Part shown: positions 3,900 through 30,283 of the stretch, piece after piece
How positions within the stretch are numbered: the first letter of the stretch is position 1
Layout: every line of letters starts with the position of its first letter
From: a phage
Assembly: GCA_021534775.1 (NCBI GenBank)
Contig: GCA_021534775.1_4809.1
Strand: one strand, 5' to 3'
DNA: 30,283 nt
Made by a program: the position numbers and the translations under genes
Notes under the pieces: generated by a model
The model's database searches: none
Told to the model about the DNA's origin: nothing
Seen by the model: only the letters and a program-made list of their open reading frames with translations

Positions 3900-4190
3900 T
3901 TATAAGGAGACAATTTTAAAATAAGTTACTTCGCCGCCGAGTTGCGGTACAGCGAGATATTCGCCGCCGATTTCGGTAATCGTATAGACGAAGCCGTTAA
4001 TCGTTACGCGGGATGATACGATGTCCTCGTCGCGATACTTGTAAAGGTCGAGGAAGTTGATCGGCTCATAAATAGGTTCGATAGTTGCGTCTACGTTAGA
4101 GAGATAAACGCTCTCTAAGGTTTCGCCAAATACGTTAGAGTTTTCGGAAGTCTCGACGCGAGCGGAACGGATAGCGGCTAAAGTAATCAT
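3900..4190 (-). CDS. Small acidic protein (96 aa), hypothetical
   Basis: ORF with RBS aggag 7 nt upstream of ATG in the conserved context ccaactaggagattattATG; about 14 Asp/Glu versus 6 Lys/Arg. Confidence 0.65.
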   Translation of the reverse strand: MITLAAIRSARVETSENSNVFGETLESVYLSNVDATIEPIYEPINFLDLYKYRDEDIVSSRVTINGFVYTITEIGGEYLAVPQLGGEVTYFKIVSL

Positions 4191-4214
4191 AATAATCTCC
4201 TAGTTGGTCGGGCG

Positions 4215-4235
4215 GGTAGCGACCTATTCGCTACC
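4215..4235 (-). promoter_or_regulatory. 5'UTR stem-loop with conserved AAUAGGU loop (copy 1)
   Basis: Arms ggtagcg / cgctacc around a 7-nt loop, between the promoter and RBS of gene 3900-4190. Confidence 0.5.
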
Positions 4236-4257
4236 TCATCCCCTCTCGATATAAAAC

Positions 4258-4286
4258 ATTATAGTCTTAGTGTACGAAGAAGTAAA
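4258..4286 (-). promoter_or_regulatory. Sigma70-like promoter for gene 3900-4190
   Basis: Minus strand reads TTTACT, 17-nt spacer, TATAAT. Confidence 0.55.
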
Positions 4287-4297
4287 GCACTTTTTCG

Positions 4298-4600
4298 TTA
4301 TTCTGCAATAAAATATTTATAAGCCTTATCGCCTTCTACGTCGATATACTCGACGATAATTAACGCTTCGCCGCGCGGCGTAACCGTCTCGATAAGGGTA
4401 ACGGCTTCGTCGTCGGTCTTCGCGAAGCGGATGGCGCTACGTTCGGCGTACTTAATATCGTCGAAGGAAAGGCCGATGAAGGCGACCGCGCGGACCTTAA
4501 TGGCGCTAGATTCTAGTTCCGCGTTAACGGCGGCGATAAGAGAGCGAACGGTTAAGCGGTCTTCGTCGTAAGTAAGGATGGAAGAGATTAAAGTAGTCAT
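4298..4600 (-). CDS. Small acidic protein (100 aa), hypothetical; ORF-track start 4657 rejected
   Basis: Internal ATG (MTTLISS) preceded by gggag 7 nt upstream; the promoter -10 overlaps the track ATG at 4657, so the transcript starts downstream of it. Confidence 0.6.
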   Translation of the reverse strand: MTTLISSILTYDEDRLTVRSLIAAVNAELESSAIKVRAVAFIGLSFDDIKYAERSAIRFAKTDDEAVTLIETVTPRGEALIIVEYIDVEGDKAYKYFIAE

Positions 4601-4656
4601 AATAAAGCTCCCGATGCTAGTAGAAGAAAGGGCCATCGCCCGTCTCGATATAAACA

Positions 4657-4684
4657 AGTATACGCGAGTGTACGAAGAAGTAAA
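4657..4684 (-). promoter_or_regulatory. Sigma70-like promoter for gene 4298-4600
   Basis: Minus strand reads TTTACT, 16-nt spacer, TATACT; the upstream part (ctttacttcttcgtacact) is nearly identical to the promoter at 4258-4286. Confidence 0.5.
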
Positions 4685-4728
4685 GAAAAAAGATAAAATA
4701 ATTTATCGCATTTTTATCGAAAAAGTGC

Positions 4729-4756
4729 TTTACTTTTTTCTACACTATATTATAAT
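4729..4756 (+). promoter_or_regulatory. Sigma70-like promoter for gene 4825-5139
   Basis: TTTACT, 16-nt spacer, TATAAT. Confidence 0.55.
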
Positions 4757-4779
4757 GTACTCATATCGGGACGGGATGA

Positions 4780-4800
4780 GTTAACGAATAGGTCGTTAAC
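4780..4800 (+). promoter_or_regulatory. 5'UTR stem-loop with conserved AAUAGGU loop (copy 2)
   Basis: Arms gttaacg / cgttaac around the same 7-nt loop aataggt; the stem sequence differs from copy 1 but stays complementary. Confidence 0.5.
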
Positions 4801-4824
4801 GCCTCTCCCAACTAGGAGTTTATT

Positions 4825-5139
4825 ATGGCTATCGTTACCCGCTTTACCCTCGAAAACGCAACCGCCGAAGTCCAGGGCGTTACGCTTACTTACGGCGAAA
4901 TTCTCGCGAAATTCTCCGGCGTTCGCTTAGGCGAAGAAATTAACGACGCGACGGTAATCGAGCAACTCGCTGCTTCTCGCTTAGAGCGCGACGAAAACGG
5001 ATTCTTCGAAGTCGATGCGGAATTAAATTTATGCGGTAAAACGGCGTTTATTAACGAGTTCGAACTCGCCGTTTTAGTTAATTACGATAGCAAAGCTTAC
5101 GCCTTCGCCCTCGAATTAATCGAAGACGACGAAGAGTAA
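4825..5139 (+). CDS. Small strongly acidic protein (104 aa), hypothetical
   Basis: RBS in the context ccaactaggagtttattATG; about 22 Asp/Glu versus 7 Lys/Arg; C-terminus ELIEDDEE. Confidence 0.7.
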   Translation: MAIVTRFTLENATAEVQGVTLTYGEILAKFSGVRLGEEINDATVIEQLAASRLERDENGFFEVDAELNLCGKTAFINEFELAVLVNYDSKAYAFALELIEDDEE

Positions 5140-20236: not shown

Positions 20237-21420
20237 TGAACATTCCAGAATTTTATGATGAGCCAGCGATTCAGTTTAACGCGCAACAAATTGATGCTAT
20301 CGAAAAGGCCGTTGCATGGTACAAGCGATTGCAGGACGGTAAAACGACGAAGCGCGTGTTTTTCATTGCTGGCTATGCAGGGACTGGTAAAACCTCTATT
20401 GCTCGCGAGATTGTGCGCCGTTGTGTCGGTGAGTATGGCGCTATCTATATTGCGCCGACCGGAAAGGCTGCAAGCCGATTAAAGCAAAAAGGATGTCGTG
20501 GCGCTAAGACACTTCACCAGTTCATCTATAACGTGCGCGGCGTAAATGACGACAATGAGCCAATCTTTTCGAGAAAGTCAAAACTGGACGAAAGGCCGCA
20601 CCTTGTTGTACTCGATGAAGCGTCGATGGTTGGCGAGTGGGACACAGAGCGACTTCTTGATCACCGCATCCCTGTTCTGGCATTAGGCGACATTGGACAA
20701 GTCCCTCCGGTAAAAGCCGCCGCCTACTTTACTGAAGAAGCTGTTGACGTTCTGTTAACAGAAATCATGCGGCAGGGGAAAGAGTCCAACATCATCCGTG
20801 CCTCCTTCTTCGTGCGCCAAGGCAACCGACTTCCTCCGCGTGAATACGATGACGTCAAAGTATTGGCAGAATCGCCGCGCGTTACTGCATTGAAGAAATT
20901 CATGGGCGAAGATGATCAAATTATTTGCTCCTATAATAGCACCAAAGATAAATGGAATTCATTATTACGGCAAGTGAGCGGACGTATAACGCCAATGCCA
21001 GGAATCGGCGAGAAGGTTATTTGCACCTTCAACCAACACGGTCCAGGATTCTGTAATGGCGAGCAAGGGATTGTTATTAGCTATGAGCCAGTGCCGGACT
21101 TTGAAAGGGATGAAGATGAGTCGAATGAAATAATGTATGTCAACTTGCGTTCATTGACTGATGGTAAAGATATAAAGGTAAAGATTAATCCTCTTTCCTT
21201 CTCTACTGATCAGGAAGTGCGCAAAGAAGCGCAACGTGCTGTTGGTGGGATGGACTATGGCTATGTCATCACGGTGCACAAATCGCAAGGCAGCGAGTGG
21301 GACAATGTGTGCGTGCTGGAAGAAATCTTGCGCGGCGTTCCGTACTCCAAGATGATGTACACCGCTATCACCCGTGCTAAGAAGAATCTGACCGTGTACC
21401 GTGATTTGAAAGCGCGTTAA
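20236..21420 (+). CDS. Dda/RecD-like superfamily 1 DNA helicase
   Basis: Walker A GYAGTGKTS, Walker B VVLDEASMV, and C-terminal ITVHKSQGSEWDNV / YTAITRAKKNL motifs. Confidence 0.85.
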   Translation: MNIPEFYDEPAIQFNAQQIDAIEKAVAWYKRLQDGKTTKRVFFIAGYAGTGKTSIAREIVRRCVGEYGAIYIAPTGKAASRLKQKGCRGAKTLHQFIYNVRGVNDDNEPIFSRKSKLDERPHLVVLDEASMVGEWDTERLLDHRIPVLALGDIGQVPPVKAAAYFTEEAVDVLLTEIMRQGKESNIIRASFFVRQGNRLPPREYDDVKVLAESPRVTALKKFMGEDDQIICSYNSTKDKWNSLLRQVSGRITPMPGIGEKVICTFNQHGPGFCNGEQGIVISYEPVPDFERDEDESNEIMYVNLRSLTDGKDIKVKINPLSFSTDQEVRKEAQRAVGGMDYGYVITVHKSQGSEWDNVCVLEEILRGVPYSKMMYTAITRAKKNLTVYRDLKAR

Positions 21421-21579
21421 TGTTGACGTAAATTTACGAAAAATAAAACTGAAAATCAGTTTAATTAAAGTGGCATTGCCGCCATAGTTTTTAGTTGCTA
21501 CTGGCGGCGACTGAAGGCATAATTAAGTTATCCCAAACGGGGAATATAAAATAAACTAATTTATTTAAGGACTGTGAAC

Positions 21580-22419
21580 ATGGCCGAAGCAATCAAAGTA
21601 TTATCCAAAGAAGAAAAACAAGCAGCTGCAGCAGAACGTCGTCGCGTGGCTGAAGAAAAACGCCTGGCTAAAAAGAAAGAAGCCGAAGAAAAACGCCAGA
21701 AGCGTGAGCAGGAAAAACAAGCCAAGCGTGAAGAAGCTGCACTGAAACGCAAGCAGGCCGCTGATGAGAAAGCACAGAAACGTGCTGAAGAAGCAGCGAA
21801 GAAAGCCAAAGAGCGTGCAGAAAAAGCTGCTGCTAAGAAAGCAGAGCGTGAAGCCGCTAAAGCAGCGAAAGAAATCGAAAAGGCAAAGGCTAAAGAAGAA
21901 GCCAAGCGCCTGAAAGCTGAACAAGCTGCTGCTAAGAAAGCAGAGCGTGATCAAGCCCGTGCTGCTGCTAAAGCAGAGAAGGAAAAGGCTAAAGAAGAAG
22001 CGAAAGCCAAACGCAAGGCAGAGCGTGAAGCTGCTAAGATTGCGGCGAAAGAAGCTGCAGAACAGCAGAAAGAACAGCGTAAGCAAGAAGCTGAAGAACG
22101 TCGCAAGGCTATCGCAGAGCGTAAGGCTGCTAAAAAGGCAAACGGTCAGCGTCGTGCAAAAGCTACTCACTTCATCTACACTGGCAACGGCCTGAGCCAG
22201 CCGCAAGAGCATTCCACCCGTGGACGCGTTCTGGCGGCGATCAAAGAAGGCGAAGTTGGCGTGGCGCAGTCTATCGATGAGCTGGGCGAAAAAGTTAAAG
22301 ATCAACTGTTTGGTGCTTCCGTTCGCTCCTACCTGAGCAAGCTGGAAGAGATGGGCCACATCGAGTTTGTCGATGTTGAATCCAACGACGATGCCGAAGA
22401 CGGTGATCAAGCGGAATAA
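21580..22419 (+). CDS. K/E/A-rich charged protein with a globular C-terminal domain (possible winged-helix)
   Basis: About 190 aa of KAEKEAAK-type low-complexity charged helix, then RGRVLAAIKEGEVGVAQSIDELGEKVKDQLFGASVRSYLSKLEEMGHIE; start taken at the ATG with RBS aagga rather than the track GTG at 21574. Confidence 0.65.
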   Translation: MAEAIKVLSKEEKQAAAAERRRVAEEKRLAKKKEAEEKRQKREQEKQAKREEAALKRKQAADEKAQKRAEEAAKKAKERAEKAAAKKAEREAAKAAKEIEKAKAKEEAKRLKAEQAAAKKAERDQARAAAKAEKEKAKEEAKAKRKAEREAAKIAAKEAAEQQKEQRKQEAEERRKAIAERKAAKKANGQRRAKATHFIYTGNGLSQPQEHSTRGRVLAAIKEGEVGVAQSIDELGEKVKDQLFGASVRSYLSKLEEMGHIEFVDVESNDDAEDGDQAE

Positions 22420-22447
22420 CCTGTAGGACGGTTATATAGCGGTAATT

Positions 22448-22475
22448 GACCCACACTTGTTGTGGGTCTTTTTTC
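22448..22475 (+). terminator. Intrinsic terminator
   Basis: gacccacac ttgt tgtgggtc followed by tttttt. Confidence 0.75.
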
Positions 22476-22500
22476 GTCTGTACTAAATAGAAATGACTTG

Positions 22501-22529
22501 TTGCTGTAAAATAATTTAGCTATTATACT
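22501..22529 (+). promoter_or_regulatory. Sigma70-like promoter (TTGCTG, 17 nt, TATACT) for the enzyme operon
   Basis: Lies between the terminator and the ATG at 22560. Confidence 0.5.
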
Positions 22530-22559
22530 TCTCATATCACCCACAAAGGACAAATGAAC

Positions 22560-23549
22560 ATGAAACAACCTGTAATGATTATCGGCGGCGGTTTGGCAGG
22601 ACTTATTACCGCGTGTCACTTCCCGAACTCTATTGTGTACGAAGCAGGGGAGCGAGCGCCACAGCACAAGGCGCTGCTACGCTTTCGCGGCGAAGAAGTA
22701 AGCCGTATTACCGGAATCCCTTTTAAGGCAGTGACAGTTGACAAGGCTGTGTATTTTCGCGGTAACTACTATCACGACCATTGCCCAATCAACCTTGCCA
22801 ATATGTATTCGATGAAGGTCACCAATCAGTTTGGCAGTCGCTCAATCATGAAGCTTAAAGCTGCAACGCGTTATATTGCGCCAGACGACTTCTATGATCA
22901 GCTTGTCGATAAACTGGGGGACCGTATATTCTTTAACACTCCGGTTGACACTCTTTGCGGCTATAGCGAGACGCCAATCATCAACACGTCGCCGCTGCCA
23001 GTTATGATGAAGCTGGCTGGGATTGATCAAAAGCTTGATTTTTCATTTGATAAAGCAAACATTCGTGTTTACCGCTTTAAGATTAAACGTAAGTGTGAGT
23101 TGTATCAGACAATTTACTTCCCTGACTACTCCGTCAGAACTTACCGCGCATCAATCACTGGTGACACACTTATCATCGAAACCATTCCTTTGGTCAGCGT
23201 AAGTGCAGCTGCAGTTGAAGCCGCTGGCGGCATCACTCGTTACCGCGACATGAAGCTTCGCGCAGAAGTCGACGAAGTGTTGACAGCCTTTGGCCTCTCA
23301 TGGAGTGACATTGCTCTTGAAGAAGTTGAAAAGGTCGACCAGAAATATGGCAAGATCGTCGACATTCCGAAGGACTTGCGACACGCCCTACTCCTGCAGC
23401 TGACTATGGATTTGAACGTGTTTAGTGTCGGTCGATTTGCTACCTGGCGCAACATTTTGCTTGATGATGTCGCTCATGACCTTGTTGAAGTTGAAAAACT
23501 CATCAAAGCAAATAACTATCAAAAATTTGCTTATATTGCTAATAAATAA
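22560..23549 (+). CDS. Rossmann-fold FAD/NAD(P)-binding oxidoreductase-like protein
   Basis: N-terminal dinucleotide-binding motif MIIGGGLAGL (GxGxxG); start at ATG 22560 fits the RBS aagga better than the track start at 22554. Confidence 0.65.
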   Translation: MKQPVMIIGGGLAGLITACHFPNSIVYEAGERAPQHKALLRFRGEEVSRITGIPFKAVTVDKAVYFRGNYYHDHCPINLANMYSMKVTNQFGSRSIMKLKAATRYIAPDDFYDQLVDKLGDRIFFNTPVDTLCGYSETPIINTSPLPVMMKLAGIDQKLDFSFDKANIRVYRFKIKRKCELYQTIYFPDYSVRTYRASITGDTLIIETIPLVSVSAAAVEAAGGITRYRDMKLRAEVDEVLTAFGLSWSDIALEEVEKVDQKYGKIVDIPKDLRHALLLQLTMDLNVFSVGRFATWRNILLDDVAHDLVEVEKLIKANNYQKFAYIANK

Positions 23550-23550
23550 T

Positions 23551-23578
23551 TTGCTTTCTGCTTCAATGGGCGTATACT
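23551..23578 (+). promoter_or_regulatory. Sigma70-like promoter (TTGCTT, 16 nt, TATACT) overlapped by an inverted repeat
   Basis: Inverted repeat ctgcttcaatg (23559-23569) / cattgaagcag (23585-23595) brackets the -10. Confidence 0.45.
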
Positions 23579-23614
23579 TTAATCATTGAAGCAGAACTCA
23601 TAGAGGAAACGAAA

Positions 23615-24061
23615 ATGAAACGAATCACTGGAATCGCGCTTGCCGCAACCGCTATTCTCGGCACCATGTATATGGAAGCTACTGAAGCAGCTGTCCGCAC
23701 TTCCGATTCAATCGCTGTGTATGATTGCGAAGCGATGGACGGTAAAACCGCAGCAGCCACTGGCGCAACTATCACGGCTTACATCGGCGTGAACGAGCAA
23801 GAAGGTCTGAATATTCAGATTCAAGGATTCACAGGCAAAGGTGCCAACCGCACTCCTTGGATGCAACGTTTCACTTTCGTTCAGCCTCGTTCAACTGGCG
23901 GCTTTATCAACCTGATTGGTGAAAACCGTTCTGGTGCAGAAATCTTTACATCAATGAGTTCTAATAATGAACCAAAGAAAAGTTTTCAGTTGCTTTATAA
24001 CGCACAATTCGTTTATCATTGCACCTTCTCTGGTGATCAGCAACTAGTAAATTACCGTTAA
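23615..24061 (+). CDS. Putative secreted or periplasmic protein (148 aa)
   Basis: N-terminal signal-peptide-like segment MKRITGIALAATAILG; no lipobox cysteine. Confidence 0.6.
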   Translation: MKRITGIALAATAILGTMYMEATEAAVRTSDSIAVYDCEAMDGKTAAATGATITAYIGVNEQEGLNIQIQGFTGKGANRTPWMQRFTFVQPRSTGGFINLIGENRSGAEIFTSMSSNNEPKKSFQLLYNAQFVYHCTFSGDQQLVNYR

Positions 24062-24074
24062 TAGGATAATTAAA

Positions 24075-24878
24075 ATGAAAGTTGAATTAATTCGATACAC
24101 CCAAGATGCACTTGACCTTCTGCTGGAAACAAAGAACACGCGCATGACTGGTAAGCCTGTCTCTGAGATGACGGAATCAGAGAAGCAAGAGCATTGGCGC
24201 TACATGCTTGACACCATCAAGTCGCCTTTTGACTTTGTGGACTATATCTTTGACATCACCGCTGTATCAAAGAATATGACTCATCAGATGGTACGCACAC
24301 GCACAGGCGCATATCAAGAACGCACCAGCCGCGCTCAGGAATCTTCTGCATTTGATGCGATTCGCCCGAAAGCGTTTGAGTATGACGACCCTGACAGGGT
24401 TATCGGCGAGCGAATCGACGAGCAGCGTTTGAAGTTGGCTAACACCTGGGATGATGCAATGGCAACCATTGATGCCCTATACCAAGAACTTCGCGCGGCT
24501 GGCGCAGAGATTCAGGATGCACGTGCTGTGTTGCCTTCTAATATGCAAACGCATATCATGGCAAAGTTCAACTTGCGCACTCTACAACAAATGGCATCAA
24601 ACCGCTTGTGCACGCGCACTCAAGGCGAATATCAGGAAGTTTTCCGTGCGATGGTAGCGGAAGTCCTCAAGGTGCACCCGTGGGCTAATCCTTTACTACA
24701 GCCGCAATGCATCGGTATGGGTAAGTGCGCATTTCCTCGTCACGGTAAGGCCCATTGCCCATGGTATCGTGGTTGGATGGATACCACTGCACAGCAAGAA
24801 GAGTTGCGCATCCAGTTTTGGAATGCCGCGCCAATCACCAACAATCCAGTTGCTAAAGATGGAGTATCAAAGGGATGA
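24075..24878 (+). CDS. Divergent ThyX-like (flavin-dependent thymidylate synthase family) protein
   Basis: SPFDF...THQMVRTRTGAYQERTSRAQ and ARAVLPSN...NLRTLQQMASNRL match the ThyX signature regions (TPFEH / RHRx7-8S / ARAVLP / NxRxxxxFxxLR as I recall them) but with substitutions at signature positions. Confidence 0.7.
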   Translation: MKVELIRYTQDALDLLLETKNTRMTGKPVSEMTESEKQEHWRYMLDTIKSPFDFVDYIFDITAVSKNMTHQMVRTRTGAYQERTSRAQESSAFDAIRPKAFEYDDPDRVIGERIDEQRLKLANTWDDAMATIDALYQELRAAGAEIQDARAVLPSNMQTHIMAKFNLRTLQQMASNRLCTRTQGEYQEVFRAMVAEVLKVHPWANPLLQPQCIGMGKCAFPRHGKAHCPWYRGWMDTTAQQEELRIQFWNAAPITNNPVAKDGVSKG

Positions 24879-25747
24879 GCATTAAAAACAGTGAAATCTT
24901 AAACGTATTTGACCTTGACGGAACGCTGTTTGATGACCGTTGGCGCTTAGACCGCATCAAGGTGGCAGGACCGCTGTCAGACTACGATGATTATCACTGC
25001 GGCATTGGTTATGATCAGTTCTATCCTAACATTGCATCCGCAGTAGAGGCTGCATCTCTTCGCGGTGAGGCGGTTGAATATTGGACTGCAAGGCCAGAAA
25101 AATACAGACAAGTGACTTTTGAACGTCTGGACAATGTTTTCCCTTTTGATGAATTTACAATCAAGATGAGAGACTCTGGCGACAAACGTCCATCAACTAT
25201 TATGAAGTCTGCATGGCTATCGCACGCATTGCGGCACGGCGATTATCGAATCATCAATGTATTCGACGACCGACAAGACGTACTCGCGCGGATGCAAGAT
25301 GAAGCATTGTATTATAATTCCGTTGCTCAAAATAAAATCGCTTTTACATTTAATCTTTGCAAGGCAGGTGAAGTGGTGCAACAATTAGCAATTGATCCAA
25401 GCGCAACAGGGCAAGAAGAGACTAAGGCTGTGGAAGTTGAACAACCTCCGGCAACCGCTGCTGATATTCTTGATGCGATGGCCGCGACCTTCCGTGAGCG
25501 CAACGCCGTTTATGGCGATAACGCTGTGATGGTAGGTCAGGTTATGCAGGTCCTGTTCCCTAATGGTGTGACGCTGAAAACGCCGGAAGACTACCACATG
25601 TGGCATCTTTTCGAGCTTAAGATTGTCAAGCTTACACGCTTCGCAATCAGCGGCCTGAAGCACGAAGATTCTATACACGACGATGGTGTTTACAGCGCCA
25701 TGTGTGAACGTCTCGTCAACACCCACAATATTAATTTCAATAAATAG
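24875..25747 (+). CDS. HAD-superfamily phosphatase-like domain fused to a C-terminal domain of unknown function
   Basis: Motif I FDLDGTLFD, a Thr in WTARPE, a Lys (MKSAW) and VFDDRQD; C-terminal about 115 aa (RERNAVYGDNAVMVGQV...) is unassigned. ATGA overlap with the ThyX-like gene. Confidence 0.65.
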   Translation: MSIKNSEILNVFDLDGTLFDDRWRLDRIKVAGPLSDYDDYHCGIGYDQFYPNIASAVEAASLRGEAVEYWTARPEKYRQVTFERLDNVFPFDEFTIKMRDSGDKRPSTIMKSAWLSHALRHGDYRIINVFDDRQDVLARMQDEALYYNSVAQNKIAFTFNLCKAGEVVQQLAIDPSATGQEETKAVEVEQPPATAADILDAMAATFRERNAVYGDNAVMVGQVMQVLFPNGVTLKTPEDYHMWHLFELKIVKLTRFAISGLKHEDSIHDDGVYSAMCERLVNTHNINFNK

Positions 25748-25776
25748 TTTACTTGTGCGTTTCGATGAGTTATATT
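25748..25776 (+). promoter_or_regulatory. Sigma70-like promoter (TTTACT, 17 nt, TATATT) overlapped by an inverted repeat
   Basis: Inverted repeat gtttcgatgag (25759-25769) / ctcatcgaaac (25780-25790) brackets the -10. Confidence 0.45.
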
Positions 25777-25812
25777 TATCTCATCGAAACGAAGTCCAAA
25801 AAGGATAAATAA

Positions 25813-26496
25813 ATGAAAAAAGTAATTGTTGTAACTGGCTGCAACTCCGGTCTTGGTAAATCAATTTTTGACACCCTTGGCGCTTACGGTCACGAAGTCG
25901 TCGGAATCGATTTAGACAATGGATATGACATCCGCAATGCTAAACAGATGAAAGAGCTTCTCTCTCAATACGACGTAGAAGGCTTGATCAACTGTGCTGG
26001 CGTCAACTCTAACAACTGGTTTGAAGATGTCAACTACGAAGAGTTCAACCGCGTTATGCACACCAACGCCTTCTCTTTCGTCAACACAACTCAAGCCGCG
26101 CTGAAAAGTCTTATCGACAACAAAGGTTTTGTGATCAACATCGTTTCCAACGCTGCGCATATTCCTATGACGTCCAGCTTGTGTTATAATGCATCCAAGG
26201 CCGCTGCACTGATGATCAGCAAGCAGATGGCCCACGAGCTTACGCCTAAGTACGGCATCACGGTATTCTCTATTAGTCCTAACAAGTTGCGCGGCACTGG
26301 TATGTCTAAGCAGATTGAAGATGCTGTTTGTGCGACTCGCGGCTGGACTCCTGAATACGCCGCTGAATACCAGAAAAAGGCGTTGATGAATGGATTGGAG
26401 ACTGAGCCGCAAGTAATTGCTGACTTCATTCGCCATATCTTAATTACGGGCGCATGGCGCTTTATGTCTGGGACTGATATTCCATTTGGGAAATAA
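25813..26496 (+). CDS. Short-chain dehydrogenase/reductase (SDR) family oxidoreductase
   Basis: TGCNSGLGK (TGxxxGxG), NAG-like INCAGV, catalytic S...YNASK (YxxxK). Confidence 0.85.
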   Translation: MKKVIVVTGCNSGLGKSIFDTLGAYGHEVVGIDLDNGYDIRNAKQMKELLSQYDVEGLINCAGVNSNNWFEDVNYEEFNRVMHTNAFSFVNTTQAALKSLIDNKGFVINIVSNAAHIPMTSSLCYNASKAAALMISKQMAHELTPKYGITVFSISPNKLRGTGMSKQIEDAVCATRGWTPEYAAEYQKKALMNGLETEPQVIADFIRHILITGAWRFMSGTDIPFGK

Positions 26497-26499
26497 ATC

Positions 26500-26667
26500 A
26501 TGACTATCAAAGTTGTTGTAGAAGTGATTGGCGACGTGGCAGAAGTGAAGATTGATCAAGAAGGCGTTGGATTTGAAGTAATAAGAATCGAAAACGCAAA
26601 GGTTAACCACGAGCGCGTCGGTTCCATTGAGACTTATTCCATAGAAGGCAAAGATAAGGGCGAATAA
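26500..26667 (+). CDS. Small protein (55 aa, MTIKVVVEVIGDVAEVKIDQEGVGFEVIRIENAKVNHERVGSIETYSIEGKDKGE)
   Basis: Hand-translated ORF packed between the SDR and the next gene with 3-nt spacers. Confidence 0.4.
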   Translation: MTIKVVVEVIGDVAEVKIDQEGVGFEVIRIENAKVNHERVGSIETYSIEGKDKGE

Positions 26668-26669
26668 CC

Positions 26670-26885
26670 ATGAACAAAGCCTGGATAGCGGTAATCGGTT
26701 TAGTGCTTCTTGTTGTATTAGGATACACAATCAAATTTGAAGTTCCAAATCCTGTTGAGCCTGACAAAAAGATTGTCGTTGAAGTCCCAGGCGCTAAAGG
26801 TGAATTGCCCAAACCTAAATTTGAAGTTGTCACACCAGCTCCTGAAAAGAAACAGGACGAAGACAACACAGTAATTAATCAATAA
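26670..26885 (+). CDS. Small membrane-anchored protein (71 aa)
   Basis: N-terminal TM helix WIAVIGLVLLVVLGY followed by a Pro/Lys/Glu-rich tail. Confidence 0.55.
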   Translation: MNKAWIAVIGLVLLVVLGYTIKFEVPNPVEPDKKIVVEVPGAKGELPKPKFEVVTPAPEKKQDEDNTVINQ

Positions 26886-26905
26886 TATTTAATTAAGGAA
26901 ACAAA

Positions 26906-27457
26906 ATGCCACATTTTAAAATTGAACAAATCGCCCTGTCCATTCCAGATGCTCAACGCGCTCAGGACTTCCTGGCTAAAATCGGCCTGACAGAGTGGTT
27001 CCATGATCATGTTGTTGCTACTGGTCGCGTATTTGAAGCTGATGACTTTAAAGGTCGTCGCGACGATTGCACCAATGAAGCTGACTTGCGCTTCAACTAT
27101 CAGGCTGGCAACGGCACCGATGTCGGCGCTGGTAAGCCTCTTGAGCTTGAAATCCTTGACTACACAATGGGCTGCAACTGGATTAATGAAAACATCGAAT
27201 ATATCGATGCGCACGATAATCAGGTCAGCCACCTTGGCATGCACGTGACTGCCGCTGAACTCGCTGAATGGCGTAAGTTCTTTAGTGAAGAAGGCATTCA
27301 GGTTGCACAGGAAGTTGTAACCGACTCTCACACCAACCCAAATATTGCTGGTCAGCGTCGTTACAACTATGTGATCTTTGATACTCGTGAAATCATCGGT
27401 GTCGACCTTAAGTTCATTGTGCGGTTGAATCAAGACGGTACTCCGTACACTGTATAA
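26906..27457 (+). CDS. VOC (glyoxalase / bleomycin-resistance / dioxygenase) fold protein, tentative
   Basis: RBS aagga; overall pattern including SHLGMHV suggests a metal-binding VOC-type fold, but the assignment is weak. Confidence 0.5.
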   Translation: MPHFKIEQIALSIPDAQRAQDFLAKIGLTEWFHDHVVATGRVFEADDFKGRRDDCTNEADLRFNYQAGNGTDVGAGKPLELEILDYTMGCNWINENIEYIDAHDNQVSHLGMHVTAAELAEWRKFFSEEGIQVAQEVVTDSHTNPNIAGQRRYNYVIFDTREIIGVDLKFIVRLNQDGTPYTV

Positions 27458-27473
27458 AGAATCTTAAATCTGT

Positions 27474-27498
27474 GGCCGTCCTAATGGGCGGCCTTTTT
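27474..27498 (+). terminator. Intrinsic terminator
   Basis: ggccgtcc taat gggcggcc followed by ttttt. Confidence 0.7.
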
Positions 27499-27511
27499 GT
27501 AGGAGGCTAAT

Positions 27512-28054
27512 GTGTTATTTCTCCCTTATGACTTCGAAACAACCGGATTGACCGTGCACCCGAAAGCGCCGCTTGGAATGCAGCCGCGCCCTATTGAATT
27601 TGCAGGCCTGTTGACAGACGGCAAAGAGATTCTTGAAACGTTCGAGTTCATAATTAATCCTGAAATTGTGATTGAAGAAATCATCACAAAGATTACCGGA
27701 TTAACCAATGAAGACCTTGAGTGCAATCCACCATTCATCAACTTCGTCCCGCAGCTAAAAGAAATCTTCAAGAAGACGGATGCAACTATTGCGCACAACC
27801 ATGCGTTCGATAAGAACATTCTTGATTATGCACTACAGCGCGAAGGACTTACGCTTGATGATGTTAATTTTCCAGAAATAAACATATGTACAGTTGAGCA
27901 AACCTTGCCTATTTTTGGCCGAAGAGTTAAGCTTCAAGAGTTGTATGAATTATATTTCGGAAAATATGAACAGAAGCACCGTGCATTAGACGACGTAATA
28001 TTACTGCACAAAGTCTGCCAACAAATTGGCGTATATGACATCTGGAGTAAATAA
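27512..28054 (+). CDS. DnaQ-like DEDDh 3'-5' exonuclease (proofreading subunit-like)
   Basis: GTG start 5 nt after aggagg; Exo I YDFETTG, Exo II AHNHAFD, Exo III HRALDD. Confidence 0.85.
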   Translation: MLFLPYDFETTGLTVHPKAPLGMQPRPIEFAGLLTDGKEILETFEFIINPEIVIEEIITKITGLTNEDLECNPPFINFVPQLKEIFKKTDATIAHNHAFDKNILDYALQREGLTLDDVNFPEINICTVEQTLPIFGRRVKLQELYELYFGKYEQKHRALDDVILLHKVCQQIGVYDIWSK

Positions 28055-30283
28055 TGTTTCCACAATTGAGAGTTCGCAGCGGTTACACGTTCAAAGAAGT
28101 TTATGGACGGCATCCTGAAATTATAGCACGGCTCAAAGAGTTGGGCTGCGAAGTCGCGGCATTAGTTGATAACAATACATGGGGTCACGTTCGCTGGGAA
28201 AAGGAATGCCAGAAAAATGATATTAAGCCTATGTTTGGGATGGAGATTCCAATCATCGACCCTGATGCGGACCCGAAAAAGGGATTCAAACCGAAGGCTT
28301 GGATATTGGCCCTTGACTTAAAATCTTTTTACAACGCTACAACACTTGCAACGCAGCGCGGTGGACTTACCCGTGCAGAGTTCGGGGCGCTCGATGGCGT
28401 CGTTAAATTCTGTGGCGGTGCCGTGGAGCTGCTGCGGCCAGAGGACTACGACTATATAGACGTCAACCCATCATCGTTCCTTTTGGCAAAGCGCCAGGCA
28501 TTGGCTCATCGTAGCGGTGGAAGGCCGCTGGTTTTAACCGGATACAATCACATGCCTTCTCCTGAGCACGTTGACTTCGCTTATGCTTGGGAAGTTCGCG
28601 ACACTGTGAAGCCGCATTGCATCGTTGACGTGGAAGACTTGCGCAAACAGCTTAAAGGCATCTTGACTGAAGATGAGCTCAATCAGGCAACGGCCAATGC
28701 TGTTGACATAGCAAACGGCATAGTCGGACTTGACTTGAAATTGCGTAAGGCACCGATTATTCACCTTGCTGGTGACATGGTAAAGCTTGCTCGCGAGGGG
28801 ATGGAGTACCGTCTAAAAGCAGGTCACATCAAAGAATGGACTCAGGAATATGAGGACCGCTTCAACGAAGAAATTCACCAGATTCAGCTGAAAGATTTCG
28901 ACTCATACTTTCTGGTAGTAGCCGACCTTGTACGATTCGCAAAAACAAAAATGCTTGTCGGTCCTGCGCGCGGCTCATCGGCTGGTTCACTTGTTTGCTA
29001 TTGCCTCGGCATCACGGAAGTGGACCCAATACCGTATAAGCTGCTGTTTGCCCGATTCATCGACGTAAGCCGCGCCGACCTTCCTGACATCGACATCGAC
29101 TTTGAAGATACCAAACGCTATATGGTGTTTGATTATCTTAAAGAGAAATACGGCGAAATGAACGTTGCAAAGCTTGGCAACATCAACACGCTTAAGGCCA
29201 ACTCAGTAATGGCGCAGGTTGGTAAGAAGTTCAACATTGGATACCACGAAACGGCCAACATTAAAAACGCACTGCTTGAATACTCATCCGGTGACGCCCG
29301 TTATGGTCACGGCCTGGAGGATACCTTTGCAACAACGACCACGGGTCAAGAGTTCGTGGCGAAATATCCTGACGCCGCGCGTTGCATGGGTGACCTTGAG
29401 ATTCACCCGTCTCACACAGGTGTTCACGCAGCGGGAATCATTGTGTGTAATGACCCAATCTCTGATTACTGTACTGTAACTGCAGAAGGGATTGCGCAAA
29501 TTGATAAGCCTGACAGCGAATACCTTAACCTTTTGAAGCTTGATGCGTTGGGCCTTCGTACCCTCGGCATCATTTCTGATACTGGCGTGATAGATGCTGA
29601 AACGCTGTACGGAATCAAGCTTGATGATCAAAGCGTCCTTGACATCCTTAACGAAAACAAAATGTCAGGCATCTTCCAGTTTGAAGGTGACGCTGTACGC
29701 TCAGTAACCAACTTTGTGCACGTTGATAACTTTAACAAAATCGATAACCTGACAGCACTTGGTCGACCTGGCCCGTTGTCATCCGGTATGGCCCAGAAAT
29801 ACATCGAACGCGCGGCAGGGCGTGCACCGATTGAGTATGATGTGCCGCAGCTTGAGCCGTACTTAAAAGAGACTTACGGCGTGTTTCTTTACCAAGAGCA
29901 AATCATGGCCGTGGTTAAAGAGATTGGTTCATTTGACTGGGCGAAAACATCCGCTGTACGTAAGGCGATGTCAGGCCGTAAGGGTGAGGAATACTTTAAC
30001 AAGCTTGGCGAAGACTTCGTTGCAGGCGCAATAAATAATGGCGTACCGGAAGCGGATGCAAGAAAGCTTTGGCAGGCGATGGCGACGTTCGGGTCATGGG
30101 GCTTTAACAAGTCACACTCCGTGTCATACGCGGTCGTGACCTACTGGACCTTGTGGCTTAAACGACACTACCCGTTGGAATTTGCCGCTGCTTGCTTACG
30201 CGCTGCTAAGGACGAAGACCAGACGATTGCGATATTACGTGAACTTGCGAAGGAAGGCGTGGATTACGTTCCAATCGACCCTG
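28054..30283 (+). CDS. dnaE: DNA polymerase III alpha (DnaE-type) catalytic subunit, 3'-partial
   Basis: ATG overlaps the exonuclease stop (TAATG) and the frame stays open to the window end. Palm motifs GSSAGSLVCYCLGITEVDP and FARFIDVSRADLPDIDIDFEDTKR; N-terminal PHP region with degenerate His motif (QLRVRSGYTF). Confidence 0.9.
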   Translation, partial: MFPQLRVRSGYTFKEVYGRHPEIIARLKELGCEVAALVDNNTWGHVRWEKECQKNDIKPMFGMEIPIIDPDADPKKGFKPKAWILALDLKSFYNATTLATQRGGLTRAEFGALDGVVKFCGGAVELLRPEDYDYIDVNPSSFLLAKRQALAHRSGGRPLVLTGYNHMPSPEHVDFAYAWEVRDTVKPHCIVDVEDLRKQLKGILTEDELNQATANAVDIANGIVGLDLKLRKAPIIHLAGDMVKLAREGMEYRLKAGHIKEWTQEYEDRFNEEIHQIQLKDFDSYFLVVADLVRFAKTKMLVGPARGSSAGSLVCYCLGITEVDPIPYKLLFARFIDVSRADLPDIDIDFEDTKRYMVFDYLKEKYGEMNVAKLGNINTLKANSVMAQVGKKFNIGYHETANIKNALLEYSSGDARYGHGLEDTFATTTTGQEFVAKYPDAARCMGDLEIHPSHTGVHAAGIIVCNDPISDYCTVTAEGIAQIDKPDSEYLNLLKLDALGLRTLGIISDTGVIDAETLYGIKLDDQSVLDILNENKMSGIFQFEGDAVRSVTNFVHVDNFNKIDNLTALGRPGPLSSGMAQKYIERAAGRAPIEYDVPQLEPYLKETYGVFLYQEQIMAVVKEIGSFDWAKTSAVRKAMSGRKGEEYFNKLGEDFVAGAINNGVPEADARKLWQAMATFGSWGFNKSHSVSYAVVTYWTLWLKRHYPLEFAAACLRAAKDEDQTIAILRELAKEGVDYVPIDP

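What the first reader, a model, noticed from the sequence alone, without database searches (positions are those of the whole stretch)
25748..25790. Second promoter bracketed by a different 11-bp inverted repeat upstream of the SDR gene
A TTTACT / TATATT promoter with inverted repeat gtttcgatgag ... ctcatcgaaac around the -10. This is the same architecture as at 23551-23595 but with an unrelated repeat sequence, which suggests separate regulation of the second half of the enzyme operon.
Basis: seen in the sequence. Interest (0 to 1): 0.4.

Follow-up and report, generated by a model that had tools for sequence, protein, structure and literature searches.

The report
Promoter with built-in hairpin in phage operon
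A 65-base gap between two enzyme genes of an E. coli phage holds a likely promoter whose -10 box sits inside a perfect 12-bp inverted repeat; this design resembles the promoter/stem-loop cassettes described in T4-like phages, and it is conserved but not very surprising.

Summary
TTTACT (25748-25753), a 17-nt spacer and TATATT (25771-25776) lie directly after the stop codon of a HAD/PNKP-like gene and 36 nt before the SDR gene. A perfect inverted repeat, 12 bp rather than 11 (25758-25769 / 25780-25791), encloses the -10 box. The hexamers alone are at chance level. The repeat is not: about 0.03 are expected per 30 kb, and the RNA fold has z = -5.8.

The window is a Wifcevirus-type E. coli myovirus. 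Its helicase-to-polymerase operon has three such elements (E1 at 21476-21523, E2 at 23550-23596, E3 here). Across eight Wifcevirus genomes the E2 and E3 gaps have 0/65 and 1/65 variable columns, against 34-41% at neighbouring third-codon positions.

Kylevirus and Myosmarvirus phages keep a 17-spaced sigma70-type promoter at the same junctions. Each has a hairpin of different sequence and position, with three compensatory pair changes and plus-sense G·U pairs.

The best reading is a composite promoter plus stem-loop, like the PeSLs of T4-like phages. The hairpin can form only in read-through RNA and probably insulates or stabilises the upstream transcript, while the promoter restarts transcription. 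An operator for a repressor is poorly supported. Nothing here has been tested experimentally.

The parts
24875..25747 (+). Upstream gene for a HAD/PNKP-type phosphatase-like protein. Its stop codon TAG at 25745-25747 abuts the -35 box.
   Evidence: ORF list. Pfam PF25109 HAD_PNKP, E = 1.1e-8. Annotated as phosphatase or polynucleotide kinase/phosphorylase in relatives.
25730..25747 (+). AT-rich tract (ATTAATTTCAATAAATAG, 16 of 18 A/T) upstream of the -35 box, containing the upstream stop codon. It may act as an UP element.
   Evidence: Read directly from the sequence. The same AATAAATA(A/G)TTT(G/A)CTT block precedes the E2 promoter.
25748..25753 (+). -35-like hexamer TTTACT.
   Evidence: Promoter scan. 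It belongs to the phage's own motif family.
25758..25769 (+). Left arm CGTTTCGATGAG of the 12-bp perfect inverted repeat. It lies inside the promoter spacer.
   Evidence: Invariant in eight Wifcevirus genomes.
25771..25776 (+). -10-like hexamer TATATT, in the loop or apical part of the hairpin.
25780..25791 (+). Right arm CTCATCGAAACG. It is homologous to leader sequence in Kylevirus (CTCATCTTAAACG) and Myosmarvirus (ATTTCAACG), where it is not part of a hairpin.
25783..25783 (+). Predicted transcription start (an A, 7 nt after the -10 box). This is an inference, not a measurement. A transcript starting here lacks the left arm and cannot form the hairpin.
   Evidence: Inferred from sigma70 promoter geometry on the sequence. 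The folds used this start point.
25800..25805 (+). Shine-Dalgarno sequence AAAGGA, 7 nt before the ATG.
   Evidence: Sequence. A ribosome-binding site is annotated at the equivalent place in phage Mansfield.
25813..26496 (+). Downstream gene for a short-chain dehydrogenase/reductase.
   Evidence: Pfam adh_short, E = 1.2e-31. Annotated as FabG-like reductase in relatives.
23550..23596 (+). Sister element E2: TTTGCT (23550-23555), 17-nt spacer, TATACT (23573-23578), with a 13-bp perfect repeat TTCTGCTTCAATG / CATTGAAGCAGAA (23556-23568 / 23584-23596) enclosing the -10 box. It starts directly after the stop codon of the UGM-like gene.
   Evidence: The intergenic region has 0 of 65 variable columns in eight genomes.
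21476..21523 (+). Related element E1: a 10-bp repeat TTGCCGCCAT / CTGGCGGCGA (21476-21485 / 21501-21510) encloses the -35 box TTGCTA (21495-21500); the -10 box CATAAT is at 21518-21523. The window has a U·G pair and a loop-side mismatch where FEC19 has a perfect TCGCCGCCAG.
22448..22474 (+). Canonical intrinsic terminator (GACCCACA...TGTGGGTC followed by T6) in the same operon. A hairpin-free promoter, TTGCTG-17-TATACT, follows at 22501-22529.
   Evidence: Annotated as a terminator in the WFH and Mansfield records.
27474..27498 (+). Canonical intrinsic terminator (GGCCGTCC...GGGCGGCC followed by T5) that closes the SDR/glyoxalase-like unit.
   Evidence: Annotated as a terminator in the WFH and Mansfield records.

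Best explanation
This is a composite promoter plus stem-loop element in a Wifcevirus-type E. coli myovirus. It works like the PeSL (promoter-early stem-loop) cassettes of T4-like phages.

The 65-nt gap holds five parts in order: the upstream stop codon within an AT-rich tract, a host sigma70-type promoter (TTTACT, 17 nt, TATATT), a 12-bp inverted repeat wrapped around the -10 box, a Shine-Dalgarno sequence, and the SDR start codon.

Proposed mechanism. RNA polymerase coming from upstream (the 148-aa / ThyX / HAD-PNKP unit) transcribes both arms. The read-through RNA then folds into a hairpin of about -19 kcal/mol, 10 nt after the stop codon. The hairpin has no U-tract, so it probably pauses or partly terminates transcription, and/or protects the 3' end of the upstream message. 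It marks the end of that transcription unit. Host polymerase starts afresh at the embedded promoter, at about A25783. That is inside the right arm, so the new transcript has no hairpin and an open leader.

What is shown: the anatomy, its non-randomness, its conservation, and the selection for pairing seen in relatives. What is inferred: promoter activity, the start point, and what the hairpin does to RNA.
For: Anatomy and statistics.

Recurrence within the phage: of 13 candidate promoters in the window, only the three internal promoters of the plus-strand helicase-to-polymerase operon (E1, E2, E3) carry a hairpin with z of -3.2 or lower. The others have z of -1.3 or higher. The one internal promoter of that operon that is preceded by a canonical terminator (22448-22474) has no hairpin. 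In the whole 68-kb FEC19 genome the only long repeats embedded in promoters are these three.

Conservation: the E2 and E3 gaps have 0/65 and 1/65 variable columns in eight genomes, against 34-41% at third-codon positions of the flanking genes. This includes the spacers, which are normally free to vary.

Comparative evidence at the same junctions: Kylevirus has TTG[ACGCCTCTT cca AAGGGGCGT]ATTCT in Kyle and TTG[ACGCCGTA gaaaa TACGGCGT]ATCTT in PA1. That is three double compensatory changes inside identical flanks, with one U·G pair in Kyle. Myosmarvirus has TTGACTgca[GGCCA agga TGGCC]GATAAT and TTGACG[ATGGCGCT atta AGCGCCAT]AAT. All have 17-nt spacers.

Strand: the G·U pairs in Kyle, in Myosmarvirus TTATTTCGT/ACGAGATAA, and in window E1 versus FEC19 pair only in plus-sense RNA.

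Absence in distant relatives: relatives from Xanthomonas phages and metagenomes have the two genes abutting, with no promoter and no hairpin.

Literature: the PeSL description (stop codon in an AT-rich tract; -35 and -10 boxes; a stem-loop between the boxes or overlapping them; then SD and ATG; one stem-loop shown to terminate and one full element shown to promote) matches this anatomy (PMC2839356; PMC4122927). The distant relative Pbunavirus 14-1 uses 26 sigma70-like promoters and short transcription units of 0.8-1.2 kb (PMC10914365).
Against: There are no transcript data, so neither the start site nor a 3' end is shown.

The hexamers are only 9 of 12, and such matches are at chance frequency in this sequence.

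The hairpin lacks a U-tract, whereas the same operon uses textbook terminators elsewhere. Efficient intrinsic termination is therefore doubtful.

Folding energy is equally good on the minus strand. The plus-strand argument rests on three G·U pairs, none of which is in this element itself.

This element shows no variation in its stem within Wifcevirus, so there is no covariation at the site itself.

Two internal promoters in the minus-strand cluster (12313 and 11061) have neither a hairpin nor an obvious terminator, so the design is not a general rule of this phage.

The whole gap is conserved, not only the arms, so conservation does not single out the pairing.
Confidence: 0.55

Rival explanations
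1. Operator. The inverted repeat is a binding site on double-stranded DNA for a dimeric phage or host regulator that covers the -10 box and switches this promoter off or on. This would give the separate regulation that the first reader suggested.
For: A perfect palindrome that overlaps the core promoter is the classical operator layout. The element is invariant among eight genomes. Folding energy cannot tell DNA-level from RNA-level function, nor the strand. A small 'transcriptional regulator' gene is annotated elsewhere in the FEC19 genome.
Against: E1, E2 and E3 have unrelated arm sequences and different centre-to-centre distances (25, 28 and 22 bp), so three different regulators would be needed. 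No further copies of either arm occur beyond chance. At the orthologous promoters in Kylevirus and Myosmarvirus the stem sequence and position differ while pairing is kept, with compensatory changes and G·T pairs that would be mismatches in a DNA palindrome.
Confidence: 0.12
2. No promoter. The hexamers are a chance match, and the element is only an intercistronic RNA hairpin in a long polycistronic message. It would act as a processing site or a barrier to 3' exonucleases, setting different stability for the upstream and downstream halves.
For: Consensus matches of this quality occur at chance frequency. The hairpin sits 10 nt after a stop codon, as REP-like stabiliser hairpins do (my own knowledge, not tested here). 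There is no U-tract.
Against: The hexamers fit the phage's own recurrent promoter motif, with a 17-nt spacer and a shared AATAAATAnTTTnCTT upstream block. Three genera keep 17-spaced -35 and -10 boxes at this junction, with a better match to consensus in the sister genera. In E2 and E3 the -10 box sits in the loop and in E1 the -35 box does, which is unlikely to arise three times by accident.
Confidence: 0.15
3. DNA-level structural switch. On negatively supercoiled phage DNA the repeat extrudes as a cruciform whose AT-rich centre carries the -10 box. Promoter strength would then depend on superhelical density or on replication state.
For: The repeat is perfect, has an AT-rich centre (TTATATTTAT) and encloses the -10 box. 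An engineered E. coli promoter that is repressed by cruciform extrusion has been described (Horwitz and Loeb 1988; recalled from memory, not checked here).
Against: Short arms (12-13 bp) with spacers of 10-15 nt are poor candidates for cruciform extrusion (general knowledge). Orthologous hairpins contain G·T pairs and some stems are only 5 bp, which do not fit a DNA cruciform. Hairpin position relative to the boxes varies between genera.
Confidence: 0.06
4. The repeat has no function. It arose in one step by a template-switch mutation that copied the leader into the spacer, and it persists because it is harmless inside a conserved promoter.
For: The right arm is ancestral leader sequence shared with other genera, while the left arm is specific to Wifcevirus. 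This is what a template switch would produce.
Against: Spacer positions that are normally unconstrained are invariant, with 0 variable columns in the two 17-nt spacers against a neutral proxy of about 36%. Hairpins recur at all three junctions in three genera. Compensatory changes occur in Kylevirus.
Confidence: 0.07

Closest known systems
PeSLs (promoter-early stem-loops) of T4-like phages RB49/phi1, T4/PST and KVP40/nt-1 (Arbiol et al. 2010, PMC2839356; Comeau et al. 2014, PMC4122927)
   Same: The order of parts in one short intergenic cassette is the same: upstream stop codon in an AT-rich tract, sigma70-type -35 and -10 boxes, a stem-loop between the boxes or overlapping them, then SD and ATG. 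The published subclasses 'overlapping -10', 'overlapping -35' and 'between the boxes' correspond to E2/E3, to E1, and to the Kylevirus/Myosmarvirus versions. G·T pairs occur in the stems. The proposed role is also the same: end or attenuate upstream transcription and restart it.
   Different: The host phage is an unrelated myovirus (Wifcevirus, a distant relative of Pbunavirus). There are only three copies per genome, with unrelated stem sequences, rather than a repeated family about 100 bp long. They lie in a conserved replication and nucleotide-metabolism operon, not in hyperplastic ORFan regions. The stems are mixed-sequence, not polyG/polyC. I saw no sign of recombination or indels at the elements among eight genomes. 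No experiments exist.
Rho-independent (intrinsic) terminators
   Same: A stable hairpin lies a few nucleotides after a stop codon. Folding is about 12 kcal/mol better than shuffles.
   Different: There is no U-tract after the stem (AAGTCCAAAAAGG follows). The loop is 10 nt, or 4 nt with a T·T mismatch. The consensus terminator scan does not list it, although it does list the two true terminators of this operon.
Palindromic operators that overlap core promoters (lac, lambda and LexA types)
   Same: A perfect dyad covers the -10 box.
   Different: No shared half-site among the three elements, no other copies in the genome, no cognate regulator identified, and pairing rather than sequence is what is conserved in relatives.
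REP-like or intercistronic stabiliser hairpins in polycistronic mRNAs
   Same: A U-tract-less hairpin directly downstream of a cistron could block 3' exonucleases and set differential stability.
   Different: Here the hairpin is interleaved with promoter hexamers and is unique in sequence, not a dispersed repeat.

Membership tests
PeSL (T4-type promoter-early stem-loop) | An intergenic sigma70-like promoter (-35 and -10 boxes, spacing of about 17) directly before a gene. | tested here: met
   TTTACT, 17 nt, TATATT, 36 nt before the ATG. It matches the phage's own motif family. This holds at the level of sequence only.
PeSL (T4-type promoter-early stem-loop) | [quoted passage not shown] | tested here: met
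   A 12-bp perfect stem encloses the -10 box; dG = -18.9 kcal/mol, z = -5.8.
PeSL (T4-type promoter-early stem-loop) | The upstream stop codon lies in an AT-rich tract before the -35 box, and SD plus a start codon lie at the 3' end. | tested here: met
   ATTAATTTCAATAAATAG (16 of 18 A/T) ends in the stop codon TAG at 25745-25747. AAAGGA is at 25800-25805 and the ATG at 25813.
PeSL (T4-type promoter-early stem-loop) | A repeated, sequence-conserved motif family (about 100 bp) found in many copies, concentrated in hyperplastic regions and flanking ORFans. | tested here: not met
   There are only three promoter-embedded hairpins in the 68-kb FEC19 genome, all in the core helicase-to-polymerase operon. 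The stems are unrelated and not repeated. E2 and E3 share only about 16 nt upstream.
PeSL (T4-type promoter-early stem-loop) | Acts as a point of recombination, so that indels and gene swaps between close relatives end at the elements. | tested here: not met
   Eight Wifcevirus genomes are collinear across E2 and E3. The indel regions (inside thyX, and 26497-26905) do not border the elements. In Kylevirus one gene is flanked by two similar elements, which is suggestive but lies outside this window.
PeSL (T4-type promoter-early stem-loop) | Promoter and terminator activities demonstrated experimentally. | not testable with these tools
   This needs reporter fusions or transcript-end mapping.
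PeSL (T4-type promoter-early stem-loop) | Carried by a T4-like phage. | tested here: not met
   The window is 92-95% identical to Wifcevirus genomes (taxonomy).
Intrinsic terminator | A GC-rich stem with a short loop. | tested here: inconclusive
   The stem is 12 bp with 6 G-C pairs. The loop is 10 nt, or 4 nt after a T·T mismatch.
Intrinsic terminator | A U-tract immediately 3' of the stem. | tested here: not met
   The stem is followed by AAGTCCAAAAAGG. The site is absent from the terminator scan, which does find 22448 and 27474.
Repressor operator | A dyad-symmetric site that overlaps the core promoter. | tested here: met
Repressor operator | The same half-site is reused at other regulated promoters, or its sequence is conserved at orthologous promoters. 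| tested here: not met
   There are no extra copies. E1, E2 and E3 are unrelated. Orthologous promoters in other genera have different stems.
Repressor operator | A cognate DNA-binding protein. | not tested
   I did not search for one. It would need binding assays.
Rfam RNA families | A match to any curated covariance model. | tested here: not met
   0 matches at E up to 1 in 21000-28500.

The most novel reading that the evidence does not exclude
Hairpin-in-promoter cassettes may be a convergent, selected design shared by a whole clade of PB1-like enterobacterial myoviruses (Wifcevirus, Kylevirus, Myosmarvirus), independently of T4-like phages. In this reading, base pairing is maintained by compensatory evolution. 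The U-tract-less hairpin is made only in read-through RNA and acts as an isoform-specific insulator, through termination, pausing or 3'-end protection, or alternatively as a supercoil-sensitive DNA switch. It would be a compact 65-nt bifunctional regulatory part with a mechanism different from classical intrinsic termination.
Probability: 0.2. Interest if true: 0.5.

Novelty: new variant of a known kind. Interest (0 to 1): 0.3.

Why it matters
If confirmed, promoter/stem-loop cassettes would not be a peculiarity of T4-like phages. They would be a more general way for virulent phages that rely on host RNA polymerase to divide long operons into short, insulated transcription units. The public Wifcevirus records I inspected (WFH, Mansfield, Bas98, FEC19) annotate only the canonical terminators of this operon, so the elements would refine the transcription maps of a phage genus that has been little studied but is reported to replicate very fast (bioRxiv 10.1101/2024.09.12.612763). 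The cassettes are also small, self-contained parts (stop codon, hairpin, promoter, RBS in 65 nt) that could be tested for synthetic biology. The practical gain is modest: it adds a case to a known design and does not settle an open question.

Tried and rejected
1. Translation control by the hairpin. Predicted pairing of the SD and ATG is the same in read-through transcripts and in transcripts from the embedded promoter, for both E3 and E2. Rejected.

2. The 8-bp complementarity between the loop (25773-25780) and the stretch before the ATG (25804-25811). By my estimate about 0.4 such pairs are expected by chance in the 351-nt region scanned, before allowing for the AT-rich composition. Dismissed.

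3. A regulon of the arm sequences. Matches with up to 2 mismatches are not above chance (8 found against 3.2 +/- 2.0, with 4 of 100 shuffles reaching 8; and 4 found against 1.3), and none forms a dyad.

4. A known RNA family. There is no Rfam match.

5. More relatives through the conserved leader AACGAAGTNCANAAAAGGA in IMG/VR. This returned only the phages already in hand plus two chance hits inside unrelated sequence.

6. A PeSL-like repeated family. The core CAAGGATGRSCGATAAT shared by Kylevirus and Myosmarvirus occurs only once or twice per genome and is absent from the window's promoters.

7. A canonical terminator reading. It is ruled out by the missing U-tract.

8. Published transcript maps for Wifcevirus. 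None was found; the vB_Eco4M-7 paper used only in-silico promoter and terminator prediction (PMC7048862).

Not attempted: searching for a cognate DNA-binding protein, or comparing the arms with E. coli transcription-factor sites.

Full report
**What is at the coordinates.** The 65-nt gap 25748-25812 lies between a HAD/PNKP-type phosphatase-like gene (24875-25747; Pfam PF25109) and a short-chain dehydrogenase gene (25813-26496; Pfam adh_short).

The sequence reads TAG TTTACT tgtg CGTTTCGATGAG t TATATT tat CTCATCGAAACG aagtccaaaAAGGAtaaataa ATG. The consensus scan lists TTTACT (25748), a 17-nt spacer and TATATT (ending at 25776) as a 9-of-12 match. It extends to 15 nt at 93%.

The sister element is also as described: TTTGCT 23550-23555, 17 nt, TATACT 23573-23578, inside a 13-bp perfect repeat at 23556-23568 / 23584-23596.

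**Chance.** The hexamers alone prove nothing: 24 promoter-like sites were found against 21.2 +/- 4.8 in shuffles. The repeat is another matter. About 0.03 perfect repeats of at least 12 bp with a 3-20 nt loop are expected in 30 kb (my arithmetic). The window has only three perfect repeats of at least 9 bp, and two of them are these promoter-wrapping ones. As RNA the element folds at -18.9 kcal/mol, against -6.4 +/- 2.2 for shuffles (z = -5.8, 0 of 200). E2 gives z = -4.4. The minus strand folds equally well, so energy alone does not give the strand.

**Where the window comes from.** The region is 92-95% identical to about 29 Wifcevirus genomes that infect E. coli or Shigella (FEC19, WFH, WFC, ECML-117, Mansfield, Bas98-101).

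The surrounding plus-strand operon reads as follows:
- a small ORF and a Dda-like helicase
- [E1]
- a 281-aa protein
- [terminator 22448 plus a promoter]
- a UGM-like protein
- [E2]
- a 148-aa protein, ThyX and the HAD/PNKP-like protein
- [E3, this finding]
- the SDR, small ORFs and a glyoxalase-like protein
- [terminator 27474]
- the DnaQ-like exonuclease and DnaE

The WFH and Mansfield records annotate only the two canonical terminators. Nothing is annotated at E2 or E3.

**Is it a promoter?** The phage has its own recurrent motif, TTTACT/TTTGCT/TTGCCT, N16-18, TATA(A/C)T. It occurs about a dozen times in the window in the right orientation before genes, and E2 and E3 belong to it. E2 and E3 also share an AT-rich upstream block, AATAAATA(A/G)TTT(G/A)CTT, which holds the upstream stop codon.

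The same junction (phosphatase | SDR) in sister genera carries better-consensus promoters with the same 17-nt spacing:
- Kylevirus Kyle: TTGACG, 17 nt, TATTCT
- Kylevirus PA1: TTGACG, 17 nt, TATCTT
- Myosmarvirus (MTx, MyoSmar, WR01, TropicalSun, KKP 3709, Hera): TTGACT, 17 nt, GATAAT

In more distant relatives (Xanthomonas phage Carpasina and several metagenomic contigs) the two genes abut, with neither promoter nor hairpin.

Among eight Wifcevirus genomes the E2 and E3 gaps have 0 of 65 and 1 of 65 variable columns. Third-codon positions of the flanking genes vary at 34-41% of columns.

Together this makes an internal promoter likely, but it remains unproven. I found no transcript map for this genus; the vB_Eco4M-7 paper used only prediction programs (PMC7048862). 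In the distantly related Pbunavirus 14-1, ONT-cappable-seq found 26 sigma70-like promoters and transcription units of only 0.8-1.2 kb. Frequent internal promoters are therefore normal for this kind of phage (PMC10914365).

**What is the repeat for?** Four observations bear on this.

1. *Distribution.* Of 13 candidate promoters in the window, only E1, E2 and E3 have a hairpin with z of -3.2 or lower. All three follow a co-oriented gene without a canonical terminator. The internal promoter at 22501, which follows the canonical terminator at 22448, has none. In the complete FEC19 genome the only long repeats embedded in promoters are the same three.

2. *Geometry.* With sigma70 spacing, the start points fall at about A25783 and A23585, at the 5' edge of the right arms. 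Transcripts made from these promoters therefore lack the left arm and cannot form the hairpin. Only read-through RNA from upstream, or DNA, can (inference).

3. *Relatives.* Every orthologous junction promoter examined in Kylevirus and Myosmarvirus also contains a hairpin, but in another place (mostly inside the spacer) and with another sequence. Kyle and PA1 differ by three double, pairing-preserving changes inside identical flanks: ACGCC-TCTT/AAGG-GGCGT against ACGCC-GTA/TAC-GGCGT. The right arm of the Wifcevirus stem is ancestral leader sequence (compare CTCATCTTAAACG in Kyle). The left arm therefore evolved to match it.

4. *Wobble pairs.* Three stems contain G·U pairs that pair only in plus-sense RNA: Kyle; Myosmarvirus TTATTTCGT/ACGAGATAA; and window E1, where most Wifcevirus genomes have U·G and FEC19 has C-G.

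These points favour selection for RNA pairing in read-through transcripts over a sequence-specific protein site.

**Mechanism proposed.** This is a composite element. The hairpin marks the end of the upstream unit, and the embedded promoter restarts transcription for the SDR/glyoxalase-like unit, which ends at the canonical terminator at 27474.

The hairpin has no U-tract (AAGTCCAAAAAGG follows), and the scan that finds the true terminators of this operon does not list it. I therefore expect pausing, partial termination and/or protection of the 3' end, rather than efficient intrinsic termination. This step is inferred.

**Comparison with what is known.** The anatomy matches the published description of PeSLs in T4-like phages. 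[quoted passage not shown] One stem-loop reduced lacZ expression about as much as the rrnB T1 terminator, and one full element drove strong expression (PMC2839356; PMC4122927).

Membership in that family fails on three defining features that I tested:
- The elements are not a repeated, sequence-conserved family in hyperplastic regions.
- No indels or swaps end at them among eight genomes.
- The phage is not T4-like.

So it works like a PeSL but is a separate, probably convergent, variant.

**Rivals.**
- *Operator* (0.12). It fits the dyad over the -10 box. It is weakened by three unrelated stems with different geometries, no reuse of half-sites, and pairing-preserving change in relatives.
- *Hairpin but no promoter* (0.15). 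It fits the chance-level hexamers. It is weakened by the motif family and by the conserved 17-spaced boxes in three genera.
- *Cruciform or supercoil switch* (0.06) and *neutral product of a template switch* (0.07). Both remain possible but are disfavoured by the G·T pairs, the short stems in relatives and the invariant spacers.

**Things that led nowhere.**
- Translation control: the predicted accessibility of the ribosome-binding site is the same in both transcript forms.
- Rfam gave no match.
- The IMG/VR scan with a leader pattern returned only known phages and chance hits.
- The scan for a repeated hairpin-promoter core in IMG/VR found only 1-2 copies per genome.

**Verdict.** The promoter interpretation is plausible. 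The 'separate regulation through the repeat' interpretation is better replaced by a promoter plus stem-loop composite. Novelty is moderate: a new variant of a known design in a phage group where it has not been described. Interest is about 0.3.

Noticed in passing
window 21476-21523: A third promoter-embedded hairpin (E1) lies before the 281-aa gene. The repeat TTGCCGCCAT / CTGGCGGCGA encloses the -35 box TTGCTA. Wifcevirus genomes vary at two left-arm positions (U·G against C-G, and a loop-side mismatch against G-C). A small alternative hairpin, GTGGC/GCCGC followed by a T5 run, overlaps it.
   Followed up: partly
window 4188-4300 vs 4715-4827 (and 4639-4684): A promoter of about 110 nt (TTTACT-N17-TATAAT) plus its leader is duplicated in inverted orientation (65 nt at 82% and 33 nt at 88% complementarity), with a third partial copy. 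These look like divergent early promoters that share a possibly structured leader.
   Followed up: no
window 24340-24460 (inside thyX): This is a hypervariable patch among eight Wifcevirus genomes, with 34-42 variable columns per 60 against about 9 elsewhere. The FEC19 ThyX is 9 codons longer. It may be a recombination or indel patch inside a conserved gene.
   Followed up: no
window 26497-26905: The small-ORF region between the SDR and the glyoxalase-like gene is present or absent among Wifcevirus genomes: no ORF in WFH, one in Mansfield, two in Bas98 and in this window.
   Followed up: no
window 22554-27457: The gene set UGM-like / 148-aa protein / ThyX / HAD-PNKP phosphatase / SDR / glyoxalase-like lies next to DnaQ-DnaE. 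It is syntenic in Wifcevirus, Kylevirus, Myosmarvirus and Carpasinavirus. This could be a nucleotide or DNA-modification pathway. Its function is untested.
   Followed up: no
L020 1136-1152 and 1586-1602; L019 698-714; L008/L009 2940-2956: Kylevirus and Myosmarvirus share a promoter-hairpin core, CAAGGATGRSCGATAAT, at non-orthologous junctions. In Kyle two copies flank a single 148-aa gene, which resembles a PeSL cassette. There are only 1-2 copies per genome in IMG/VR.
   Followed up: partly
FEC19 genome 54248-54283 (L018 about 20248-20283), outside the window: A 13-bp perfect inverted repeat, GATACGGATAAAA / TTTTATCCGTATC with a 10-nt loop, lies in the long gap after the head maturation protease gene.
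   Followed up: no
window 5037-5076: A 10-bp perfect inverted repeat, TAAAACGGCG / CGCCGTTTTA with a 20-nt loop, is the only other perfect repeat of at least 9 bp in the window.
   Followed up: no
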